From Candidatus Eiseniibacteriota bacterium (lineage in GTDB: Bacteria; Eisenbacteria; RBG-16-71-46), in NCBI GenBank assembly GCA_963717935.1, contig CAVQXP010000004.1, positions 800,001 to 864,000 on the forward strand: a DNA stretch of 64,000 bases. Direction: 5' to 3'. Below are positions 38,201 to 41,200 of the stretch, in pieces; the first letter of the stretch is position 1, and each line of letters starts with the position of its first letter. The position numbers are program-made.

Positions 38201-41200
38201 GCGGCCCCGCGGGGGCGGCCGCGGGCCGCCGCGCGCCCGGTGCGGCAACGGGTCCGCCCGCGTGAACATCCCCCGCGCGGGATGGTATGCTCCTTGCCGC
38301 TTTGCCCCCTCAGGACAACTGCATCAGGGCTTACTTCTACACTCGCGTGCATGAGCATTCCCCGGGCGTTTCACGGCTGACGCCGTGGACGGACCTGCGG
38401 TCGGAAGGCGCGCCTAACCGAGAGGTTGCGTCATGGGTGATTCCAGGAAGACCCGCGTCATCATCATGGGAGCCGCCGGGAGGGATTTCCACAACTTCAA
38501 CGTCTACTGGAAGCAGCGCACGGACGTGGAGGTCGTCTGCTTCACCGCCGCCCAGATCCCGGACATCGCGGGGCGCGTGTACCCGCCGGTGCTGGCCGGC
38601 CCGCAGTACCCGAAGGGCATCCCGATCCACGCCGAGGACCAGCTCGACGGCCTGATCCGCGAGCACCGCATCGACCTGGTGGCCTTCTCCTACTCCGATG
38701 TCTCGCACGAGCACGTCATGCACCAGGCCTGCCGCGTGAACGCCGCAGGGGCGGAGTTCGCGCTGCTGGGCGCTGCCCAGACCATGATCGAGAGCACGAA
38801 GCCGGTCATCGCCGTGGGCGCGGTGCGCACCGGTTCGGGCAAGAGCCAGACCTCGCGTCGCGTCGCCGAGATCCTCAAGGACATGGGCAAGAAGGTGGCG
38901 GTGGTGCGGCACCCGATGCCGTACGGCGATCTCGCCCGGCAGGCGGTGCAGCGCTTCGCCAACGTCGCGGACATGGACGCGGCCCAGTGCACCATCGAGG
39001 AGCGCGAGGAGTACGAGCCGCACACCGCGATGGGCAACCTGGTCTTCGCGGGCGTCGACTACGAAGCCATCCTGCGCCGCGCCGAGCAGGAGGCCGACGT
39101 GGTGCTGTGGGACGGTGGCAACAACGACACGCCGTTCTACCGCCCCGACCTCAACATCGTGGTGGCCGATCCGCACCGCGCCGGTCATGAGCTGCGCTAT
39201 TACCCGGGCGAGACCAACGTGCGCATGGCCGACATCGTGGTGATCAACAAGGTGGACACCGCGGATTCCGAGGCCATCCAGACGGTCGAAGCCAACGTGC
39301 GCGCGCTGAACCCGACCGCCGTCCTCCTGCGTGCCAACTCCCCGGTCACGGTGGAGCAGCCCGAGGCGGTGAAGGGCAAGCGCGTGCTGGTGATCGAGGA
39401 CGGCCCGACGCTCACGCACGGCGAGATGCGCTACGGCGCGGGCCTCGTCGCCGCGCACAAGCTGCAGGCGGGCGAGATCGTGGATCCGCGGCCGTACGCG
39501 CAGGGCTCCATCAAGAAGGTGTTCGAGAAGTACTCGCACCTCACCCAGATCCTGCCGGCCATGGGCTATGGCGAGCGGCAGGTCGCCGAGCTGTCGGCCA
39601 CCATCAACGCGGTGCCGTGCGACCTGGTGCTGATCGCCACGCCCATCGACCTGCGGCACGTCCTCACCATCGACAAACCCTCGACGCGCGTGATGTACGA
39701 GCTCGAGGAGCACGACCGGACCGTGCTGCCGCGGGCCATCGCGAAGGCCGTGGCGGCACAGAAGGGCGCGGCGCCCCATGCCTAGCCCGAGCTACCTCTC
39801 GGTCAAGGACCTCTCGGCGTCCCGGACGCTGGAGGTCCTGCAGCTCGCCGGCCGTCTCAAGCGCGAGATCAAGGCGGGCACACCGCACCCCCGGCTCGCG
39901 GGCAAGACCCTCGCGATGATCTTCCAGAAGCCCTCGCTGCGCACACGGGTCTCGTTCGAGGTGGGCATGACGCAGCTCGGGGGCCACGCGATCTACCTGG
40001 GGCCCTCGGACATCAAGCTCGGTGAGCGCGAGACGGTGGAAGACATCGCCCTGACGATCTCGCGCATGTGCGATGTCATCATGGCCCGTGTGTTCGGACA
40101 CGACAGCGTGGCGGGGCTGGCGCAGCACGCCACGGTGCCGGTCATCAACGCGCTCTCGGATCGCGAGCATCCCTGCCAGATCCTGGCCGACCTGCAGACC
40201 ATCCAGGAGCGCAAGGGCCGCTTCGAGGGGCTCAAGGCCGTGTTCGTGGGGGATGGCAACAACGTGGCCCAGTCGTTCCTGTACGGTGGCGCCCTGCTCG
40301 GGATGAGCGTGACCGTGGCCTGCCCGCGGGGCTACGAGCCCCTCCCGGAAGTCGTGGCGGACGCGACGGCCCTGGGGAAGCGGACCGGGGCCGCGATCGC
40401 GGTCTCGAACGACCTGATGGCTGCCTGCCGCGGCGCCGACGTGCTCTACACGGACGTCTGGGCCAGCATGGGGCAGGAGGCGGAGGCCGCGAAGCGGAAG
40501 CACGACTTCAGCGGCTGGCAGATCGACGCCGCGCTCATGGCGGTGGCGAAGCCGGACGCGACCATCCTGCATTGCCTCCCCGCGCACTACGGCGAGGAGA
40601 TCGACTACGCCACCTCGCGCACGCCCAACTCGGCCATCTTCGACCAGGCCGAGAACCGGCTGCACGCGCAGAAGGCGCTGATGCTGCACCTGATGGGCGC
40701 CTGAGTCCGGGAACGGGTGAACGAACGATGACCGGGGAGAAGCGGAAGGAAGGAACGGGGGAGACGCTGCGCGGCGCCGTGGTGATCGTGGTCGCGGGCG
40801 TCGCGCTGGGCCTGGCGTTCAACGCGCTGGGCCTGGCGAGCAAGCCGCCGCGCGGGCTCCCGTGGGTCAAGCTGGTGGCGAAGTTGCCGAGCCTCGAGGA
40901 ACTGCAGGGCGACAGCACGGGCGCCGTGACGAACGCGCCCGTGCCCGGGGGGGGCCGGCTCGCGGTCTCTCCCGCGCCGGTGGCCGCGACTCCCGCGACT
41001 CCCGCGGCGGGCTCCCGGAGCGACGGAGCCGCGGCGAGCGATCCGGGAGCTCGGCCGGCCCCCGCGCCGCCGCCGGACGCCCTGCCCGGCGCGCACGAGG
41101 CCGCCACGCCGTCCGTCACCGCGCCGCCGCCAGCCGCAGCCGGGCTGCCCGAGGTGCCCGACCGCAACGAGCCCATCGAGGTGCAGCTCTCGACGGCGAA

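What a model noticed while it worked through the whole genome (the two positions that open the first line are those of the whole stretch)
38433..40704. carAB cleanly deleted from the pyr operon; arginine synthetase ArcE-OTC operon as carbamoyl phosphate source in a bacter [...]
This genome keeps pyrBC-KDF, pyrE and HypF-dependent NiFe hydrogenases but has lost carbamoyl-phosphate synthetase: carAB is missing from its usual place after pyrC (C4:1092832-1092942, a 110-nt gap). It carries arcE (62% to T. kodakarensis ArcE) directly followed by ornithine carbamoyltransferase, so arginine breakdown by the ATP-yielding arginine synthetase route is the likely source of carbamoyl phosphate, as shown in 2026 for Thermococcus but not for a bacterium.
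Evidence so far: CPS small chain in 42 of 42 family genomes of other genera, 0 of 4 of this genus; carB in 1 of 8 genus genomes. In four relatives a 5-6 kb gap holding carA lies between pyrC and the g01610 orthologue, here the two genes are adjacent inside a contig. ArcE in 8 of 8 genus genomes, followed by OTC in the 4 high-quality ones; arginine deiminase in 1 of 8, none here. Papers: PMC13260591 and PMC11032458 (passages read): the distribution analysis there covers Thermococcales only.
(Added by a program. Inside this text positions count along the whole contig: contig position 800,001 is position 1 of the stretch shown here. "Call 12" and the like, gene names such as g00115 and contig names such as C1 are that model's own, and its searches are not shown. 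The text may have been shortened before it was handed on; [...] marks where a part breaks off. The agent that wrote the report below was given it as the finding of a first reader that could run no searches.)

Follow-up and report, generated by a model that had tools for sequence, protein, structure and literature searches.

The report
Bacterium without carbamoyl-phosphate synthetase, keeping ArcE
This bacterium has lost the usual enzyme that makes carbamoyl phosphate, a building block for pyrimidines and hydrogenases, yet still keeps the genes that use it; it most likely gets it by breaking down arginine with a recently discovered ATP-yielding enzyme, as one archaeon is known to do, although other sources remain open.

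Summary
Observation confirmed: arcE-OTC is real and carAB is absent here and in 7 of 8 genus genomes, with a clean pyrC-TPR junction. pyrB and pyrC remain under purifying selection without CPS (dN/dS 0.09-0.27), and HypF and two NiFe large subunits are intact, so another carbamoyl-phosphate (CP) source exists. This genome has no arginine biosynthesis or deiminase, matching T. kodakarensis, so ArcE plus OTC is the best candidate (about 0.55). It is not singled out: a YgeW-like and an ATCase-like carbamoyltransferase and a carbamate kinase are also genus-wide, and three CPS-less relatives keep a full argCJBDGH operon, which needs CP not made from arginine. Wider support: ArcE in 136 of 141 Zixibacteria, CarB domain in only 44; five single-contig ones have ArcE, CK, OTC and PyrB but no CPS or YgeW; ATCase lies inside three arcE operons. 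Arginine-derived CP in CPS-less bacteria is already stated for arginine deiminase, and ArcE in bacteria was predicted in 2024. The scan found bacterial ArcE operons before on other DNA; a word search for the CPS-loss link found none. New member of a known kind; directly testable.

The parts
38433..39785 (+). arcE-family arginine synthetase (ATP-forming arginine deiminase), 450 aa, P-loop GAVRTGSGKS at residues 129-138
   Evidence: ORF; weak cDPG-synthetase match E 2.3e-6; weak CobW, MipZ and LpxK Pfam hits; keeps 139 of 144 columns invariant in 10 homologues, 60-63% to 7 archaeal ones
39778..40704 (+). ornithine carbamoyltransferase (ArcB/ArgF), 308 aa, the only OTC among the 4 transcarbamylases of the genome
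   Evidence: TIGR00658 380.5 bits over cut-off 280.85; 8-nt overlap with arcE; 4 PF00185 matches in G000
40728..41519 (+). co-oriented downstream gene: membrane-anchored rhodanese-domain protein; no link to arginine shown
   Evidence: PF00581; follows OTC in the 7 genus genomes whose locus reaches that far
41519..41935 (+). co-oriented downstream gene: MauE/DoxX membrane protein; no link to arginine shown
   Evidence: PF07291; conserved position

Best explanation
carAB was deleted long ago from between pyrC and a TPR gene. The cell, an arginine auxotroph, takes up arginine or peptides; ArcE converts arginine + ADP + Pi to citrulline + ATP + NH3, OTC phosphorolyses citrulline to ornithine + CP, and CP is drawn off by PyrB for pyrimidines, by HypF for the cyanide ligands of NiFe hydrogenases, and by carbamate kinase for ATP. 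Shown: gene presence and absence, clean junction, continued selection on pyrBC. Inferred: ArcE activity (by homology), direction of flux, and that this route, rather than the ureide or kinase routes, carries most CP.
For: No CPS. pyrB dN/dS 0.09-0.25 and pyrC 0.15-0.27 in 6 of the 10 possible pairs of five CPS-less genomes, like arcE 0.13-0.26 and recO 0.18-0.29. One CPS-less relative (G063, single contig) gained a foreign pyrC-E-F-B-I-D-K operon without carAB. HypF in 5 of 5 tested. G000 lacks argC, B, G, H, J, R and ADI, the genotype for which PMC13260591 showed that arcE and arcB, not arcC, are needed for pyrimidine synthesis. In relatives the operon is arcE-rocD-OTC, a catabolic layout. 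Canonical YgfK N-terminal domain not found in 5 of 5 genus genomes tested, so the known urate route looks incomplete. Five single-contig Zixibacteria have arcE-arcC, OTC and pyrR-pyrB-pyrC, no CarB and no third transcarbamylase. ATCase genes lie inside or beside arcE operons in 3 of 79 outside loci (two scanned, both over the TIGR00670 cut-off).
Against: YgeW-like, ATCase-like and CK genes are present in 7 of 8 genus genomes with ssnA-like, hydantoinase-like and PreTA-like genes in G000. Three CPS-less relatives keep argR-C-B-D-G-H-J under purifying selection (dN/dS 0.19-0.36), which would be a futile cycle if arginine were the only CP source. ArcE is kept in 23 of 81 other family genomes, 22 of them with carA, and in G059 where no pyr operon was found, so ArcE has other jobs. 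Salvage genes (PyrR, a uridine kinase by motif) exist. No ornithine aminotransferase RocD in G000, and I did not find or test an arginine/ornithine transporter. In Zixibacteria CK sits next to arcE, so reverse CK is not excluded there either.
Confidence: 0.55

Rival explanations
1. CP comes mainly from phosphorolysis of purine- or pyrimidine-derived ureides by the YgeW-like and ATCase-like carbamoyltransferases (C2:46551-47696 and 51868-52824); ArcE-OTC serves ATP and ornithine supply.
For: E. coli YgeW plus YqeA make ATP from a urate intermediate (bioRxiv 10.1101/2025.04.24.650524 passages). Cluster in 7 of 8 genus genomes; the CK and ATCase-like type is found in only 2 of 81 other family genomes; ATCase-like protein 98.7% identical between G000 and G063. 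Full arg operons without CPS in three relatives demand non-arginine CP.
Against: YgfK N-terminal domain absent in 5 of 5; YgeW-like, YgeY-like, SsnA-like and hydantoinase-like proteins all fall below their family cut-offs; substrates untested; five CPS-less Zixibacteria make do without any such enzyme.
Confidence: 0.2
2. Carbamate kinase (C2:49603-50562) runs backwards from ammonia and bicarbonate and acts as the CP synthetase.
For: CK over TIGR00746 cut-off, best solved match P. furiosus CK (barely above E. faecalis CK). High ammonium bicarbonate lets CK rescue E. coli CPS mutants (PMC13260591 Introduction). Would explain arg operons without CPS. CK is present in every CPS-less genome where I looked closely.
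Against: In T. kodakarensis deleting arcC had little effect and CK could not replace ArcE/ArcB; CK lies in catabolic clusters.
Confidence: 0.1
3. The pyr genes are on their way out; pyrimidines come by salvage and only trace CP is needed for HypF.
For: G059 and G063 lost the whole native pyr operon cleanly; G065 lost native pyrF; PyrR and a uridine kinase are present.
Against: pyrB and pyrC are as constrained as housekeeping genes across three deep CPS-less clades; G063 and G065 replaced lost pyr genes with foreign ones.
Confidence: 0.1
4. carAB is in the unassembled 7% of this genome.
For: 93% complete, 5 contigs; indel errors elsewhere in the assembly.
Against: Its native site is closed inside a contig, the same junction motif is in 7 of 7 CPS-less genus genomes, and a single-contig relative also lacks CarA and CarB.
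Confidence: 0.03

Closest known systems
Arginine synthetase pathway of Thermococcus kodakarensis (ArcE TK2200, ArcB TK0871, ArcC TK2158; PMC11032458, PMC13260591)
   Same: ArcE, OTC and CK present; no CPS, no ADI, no argGH in this genome; de novo pyr genes and HypF-dependent NiFe hydrogenases kept.
   Different: A bacterium; deletion site visible and polymorphic within the genus; two further CP-yielding carbamoyltransferase candidates; three CPS-less relatives keep argGH, whereas in Thermococcales CPS is tightly linked to argGH; nothing tested in vivo.
Arginine deiminase (ArcA-ArcB) supply of CP in bacteria lacking CPS (statement in PMC10986539 citing Nicoloff, Hubert and Bringel 2001, Lait 81:151; the cited paper was not read)
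   Same: Citrulline phosphorolysis by OTC replaces CPS for pyrimidine synthesis in a bacterium.
   Different: First step is the reversible, ATP-forming ArcE rather than hydrolytic ADI, so the push on OTC is weaker and depends on ADP.
2,8-dioxopurine (ygfK-ssnA-hyuA-ygeW-ygeY-ygeX, yqeA) urate pathway (bioRxiv 10.1101/2025.04.24.650524)
   Same: YgeW-like, YgeY-like, SsnA-like, hydantoinase-like and CK genes present; yields CP.
   Different: Canonical YgfK not found; all matches below cut-off; extra ATCase-like enzyme; described as an ATP source, not a biosynthetic CP source.
Carbamate kinase-like CPS proposed for Pyrococcus (PMC6022934 passages)
   Same: CK present in a CPS-less genome.
   Different: Genetics in T. 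kodakarensis argue against this role.

Membership tests
ArcE arginine synthetase | P-loop NTPase core with distant likeness to cDPG synthetase and LpxK | tested here: met
   GAVRTGSGKS 129-138; cDPGS E 2.3e-6; LpxK E 0.001
ArcE arginine synthetase | Full-length high identity to family members, conserved columns kept | tested here: met
   60-63% to 7 archaeal homologues; 139 of 144 invariant columns
ArcE arginine synthetase | Direct identity to TK2200 | not tested
ArcE arginine synthetase | Linked to arcB/arcC and complementary to ADI | tested here: met
   OTC adjacent in 8 of 8 genus genomes, CK, OTC or rocD beside homologues; no ADI in G000
ArcE arginine synthetase | Arginine + ADP + Pi to citrulline + ATP + NH3 activity | not testable with these tools
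   needs an assay
T. kodakarensis-type CP supply | No CPS, with pyr genes and HypF kept | tested here: met
T. kodakarensis-type CP supply | No argininosuccinate route when CPS is absent | tested here: inconclusive
   met in G000; not met in G059, G060, G063
T. kodakarensis-type CP supply | ArcE/ArcB is the sole CP source | tested here: inconclusive
   two other candidate catabolic transcarbamylases and CK in G000; none besides OTC and PyrB in five Zixibacteria
T. kodakarensis-type CP supply | arcE or arcB deletion causes pyrimidine auxotrophy | not testable with these tools
   needs genetics or heterologous complementation
Canonical CPS (CarAB) | CarA and CarB domains | tested here: not met
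2,8-dioxopurine urate pathway | YgfK reductase with its N-terminal domain | tested here: not met
   no match to model positions 1-430 in 5 of 5 genus genomes; a PreTA-like fusion beside ssnA might substitute

The most novel reading that the evidence does not exclude
CPS is dispensable across whole bacterial lineages: ArcE plus OTC supplies CP in most Zixibacteria and other ArcE-bearing groups, while in this Eisenbacteria genus a second, non-arginine route (ureide phosphorolysis by the YgeW-like and ATCase-like enzymes, or carbamate kinase in reverse) is strong enough for net synthesis of both arginine and pyrimidines without CPS, as the intact argCJBDGH operons of three CPS-less genomes imply.
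Probability: 0.3. Interest if true: 0.75.

Novelty: new member of a known kind. Interest (0 to 1): 0.52.

Why it matters
CPS is treated as the near-universal source of carbamoyl phosphate, and genome-based models call CPS-less bacteria pyrimidine auxotrophs. If ArcE plus OTC feeds PyrB and HypF here, many uncultured bacteria (most sampled Zixibacteria, some Delongbacteria, Fibrobacteraceae and this genus) make pyrimidines and mature hydrogenases from scavenged arginine while gaining ATP instead of spending two. It gives ArcE, whose role outside T. kodakarensis is untested (PMC11032458 Discussion), a concrete bacterial job that can be tested by simple complementation. The arginine operons without CPS reopen the old question of whether carbamate kinase or ureide breakdown can serve biosynthesis.

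Tried and rejected
PF02787 alone as a test for CarB absence: it gave false negatives in 4 actinobacterial genomes whose pyr operons hold carAB, so the 17 of 50 count falls to at most 13 of 50, and the Zixibacteria count of 97 of 141 is an upper bound; the full-length model confirmed absence in 9 of 9 re-checked negatives and found the positive control; 9 of the 13 were not re-checked. Distribution of ArcE against YgeW in the family cannot separate them. G064 pyrB looked split but the break is an N gap. The TGA flagged in G061 and G064 arcE and G065 pyrC is the normal stop. Origin of G065 carAB: trees place it beside the neighbouring genus on a long branch, which does not decide between retention and regain. 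The shared junction motif does not align convincingly with the end of carB. Promoter scan found no + strand consensus site before arcE. NCBIfam has no ArcE model hit; the Atlas names its clusters putative GTPase or cDPG synthetase. Motif scans from recall found no ADI, agmatine deiminase, Upp, ornithine cyclodeaminase or ProA/B/C in G000; these are weak negatives. PMC3474736 passages said nothing on pyrimidine supply in Mycoplasma penetrans.

Full report
What is at the coordinates. Two overlapping + strand genes lie at 38433-39785 (450 aa) and 39778-40704 (308 aa). The second is an ornithine carbamoyltransferase over its cut-off and the only OTC among four transcarbamylases in the genome. The first has no NCBIfam match, a P-loop, weak likeness to cyclic diphosphoglycerate synthetase and LpxK, both of which the ArcE paper reports (PMC11032458 Results and Discussion). 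It is 60-63% identical to seven archaeal homologues and keeps 139 of 144 columns invariant in ten homologues. Homologues sit beside carbamate kinase, OTC or ornithine aminotransferase. I did not obtain TK2200, so the 62% figure is unchecked. The closest titled relatives are Candidatus Eisenbacteria. The genome is 3.02 Mb in 5 contigs, 93% complete.

CPS is absent. No CarA or CarB domain was found, with 14 of 14 controls positive; tblastn with three CarB and two CarA proteins finds only remote folds. In 8 relatives the order is pyrB-pyrC-carA-carB-TPR-pyrK-pyrD, with 4.3-5.1 kb between pyrC and TPR (a ninth has carAB elsewhere); here the two genes are 109 nt apart. CarA is in 76 of 89 family genomes, 40 of 44 high-quality ones, and the four misses are all of this genus; within the genus it is in 1 of 8. 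Full-length CarB was not found in five further genus genomes; G062 (54% complete) was not searched for CarB.

History in the genus. A nine-gene tree gives three clades at 100% support, (G000, G059, G063), (G060, G062) and (G061, G064, G065). G065, nested in the third, has intact carAB at the native site. All 7 CPS-less genomes share a TGCTAC-containing motif before the TPR gene (weakest in G062), absent from 8 carB-TPR junctions; it resembles an extended -10 promoter (recalled, untested). One old loss with regain in G065, or spread of one deletion allele, fits best; the CarAB trees do not decide. G059 and G063 have also lost native pyrB, C, K, D and F cleanly. G063 carries a foreign pyrC-E-F-B-I-D-K operon without carAB, and G065 a foreign pyrF-pyrE fusion. 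No pyrF was found in G059.

Demand for CP persists. In 6 of the 10 possible pairs among the five CPS-less, pyr-keeping genomes, dN/dS is 0.09-0.25 for pyrB and 0.15-0.27 for pyrC, like arcE (0.13-0.26) and recO (0.18-0.29) (pairwise counting, high GC compresses dS). HypF passes its cut-off in 5 of 5 genomes tested; G000 has two NiFe large subunits with both cysteine motifs. So a CP source other than CPS is very likely.

Which source. For G000, argG, argH, argC, argB, argJ and argR are not found, nor ADI. This is the T. kodakarensis genotype, where arcE and arcB deletions cause pyrimidine auxotrophy and arcC deletion does not (PMC13260591). In most family relatives the operon is arcE-rocD-OTC, a catabolic layout; the genus has lost rocD. 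Against a sole role: a YgeW-like protein is in 36 of 89 family genomes and 29 of the 31 with ArcE; the CK plus ATCase-like module is in 7 of 8 genus genomes and 2 of 81 others by DNA search. YgeW can yield CP from a urate intermediate (bioRxiv 10.1101/2025.04.24.650524), but the N-terminal domain of YgfK is missing in 5 of 5 genus genomes tested, with a PreTA-like fusion beside ssnA as a possible stand-in. Most telling, G059, G060 and G063 hold argR-C-B-D-G-H-J without CPS (argC, B, G, H, J over cut-off in G059), with dN/dS 0.19-0.36 in 3 of 3 pairs and a G059-G063 dS of 0.41-0.69 against 0.12-0.31 for six other genes, which suggests transfer. Net arginine synthesis needs CP not derived from arginine. 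In Thermococcales CPS and argGH go together. Salvage is possible: PyrR and a uridine kinase by recalled motif.

Beyond the genus. I searched 50 of the 80 genomes behind (bacteria only). The CarB oligomerisation domain was missed in 17, all 17 with PyrB over cut-off, but four actinobacterial ones proved to hold carAB, leaving at most 13; four of these were confirmed with the full-length model, nine were not re-checked. In a sample of 141 genomes of the phylum of G125 (Zixibacteria by its record title; 90% completeness asked, values not shown), the domain matched 44 and ArcE 136; 95 of the 97 domain-negative genomes have ArcE, as do 41 of the 44 positive ones, so this shows that loss is common on an ArcE background but gives no ArcE-free contrast. 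Five single-contig members, chosen for contiguity, lack CarB by the full-length model, have exactly two transcarbamylases, and carry arcE-arcC, a lone OTC and pyrR-pyrB-pyrC (one genome's CK, PyrB and OTC over cut-off). There only ArcE-OTC or reverse CK remain; argG was not tested. An ATCase gene lies inside or beside the arcE operon in 3 of 79 outside loci; I did not show that those genomes lack CPS, and one of them has it.

What is known. ArcE homologues in many bacterial phyla were listed in 2024, with roles outside T. kodakarensis untested. CP supply by ArcE-ArcB was shown in 2026 with a survey limited to Thermococcales. ADI replacing CPS in bacteria is stated in PMC10986539, citing a 2001 paper I did not read. 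Searches found no paper linking ArcE to CPS loss in a bacterium; the library lacks most subscription papers. Seen: PMC13260591 abstract, Introduction, Results 2.1-2.3 and 2.5, Discussion (section 2.4 and supplements not read); PMC11032458 abstract, first part of Results, Discussion, and a three-term search of its supplement (figures S10-S11 not visible and may bear on bacterial range); passages only of bioRxiv 10.1101/2025.04.24.650524, PMC6022934, PMC6245113, PMC3474736 and PMC10986539; listings only for the rest.

Verdict. The deletion and the operon are real, and CPS-free CP supply is well supported. ArcE plus OTC is the most likely main source in this genome (0.55), with ureide phosphorolysis (0.2), reverse CK (0.1) and salvage with decay (0.1) as rivals. 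It extends a known archaeal pathway to bacteria, probably widely: new member of a known kind, interest 0.52.

Noticed in passing
L153:6609-14860, L154:221-8377, L155:6541-14867 (G063, G059, G060): Complete argR-argC-argB-argD-argG-argH-argJ operons in three genomes with no CPS, under purifying selection and apparently moved between lineages; implies a non-arginine CP source.
   Followed up: partly
L156:5510-11244 (G063): Foreign pyr operon pyrC-pyrE-pyrF-pyrB-pyrI-pyrD-pyrK, without carAB, inserted in a genome that lost its native pyr operon.
   Followed up: partly
phylum of G125, G139-G277; L224-L238: Most sampled Zixibacteria appear to lack CPS (domain in 44 of 141) while ArcE is near universal (136 of 141), in an aldehyde dehydrogenase-arcE-arcC operon in the five looked at.
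   Followed up: partly
L091:1-5332, L110:4001-9317, L104:566-2980: Aspartate carbamoyltransferase inside or directly beside arcE operons (OTC-CK-pyrB-rocD-arcE; arcE-OTC-CK-pyrB-rocD; arcE-pyrB).
   Followed up: partly
L002:13869-14825 (G000 C2:51868-52824): ATCase-like protein just below the ATCase cut-off, lacking the Arg and Gln that bind the aspartate side chain (residue roles recalled), 98.7% identical in G063; candidate new catabolic carbamoyltransferase.
   Followed up: partly
L241:2890-5382 (G000 C2:28889-31381): 830-aa PreT-PreA-like fusion next to an ssnA-like gene, with similar matches in 5 of 5 genus genomes tested; may replace YgfK or be a dihydropyrimidine dehydrogenase.
   Followed up: partly
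window 42034-43014 (-): 326-aa P-loop-like protein with no Pfam or NCBIfam match, 81-90% conserved beside the arcE operon in genus genomes.
   Followed up: no
window 45257-46290: tsaD is frameshifted near 46120 relative to G060 and G063; pyrG and an agmatinase-like gene on C2 also look frameshifted, most likely assembly indels.
   Followed up: partly
L157:2120-3523 (G065): G065 lacks native pyrF and carries a pyrF-pyrE fusion elsewhere; its CarAB sits on a long branch.
   Followed up: partly
L200, L205, L206, L207: CarB of four actinobacterial genomes is missed by PF02787; a caution for absence calls made with that domain.
   Followed up: yes
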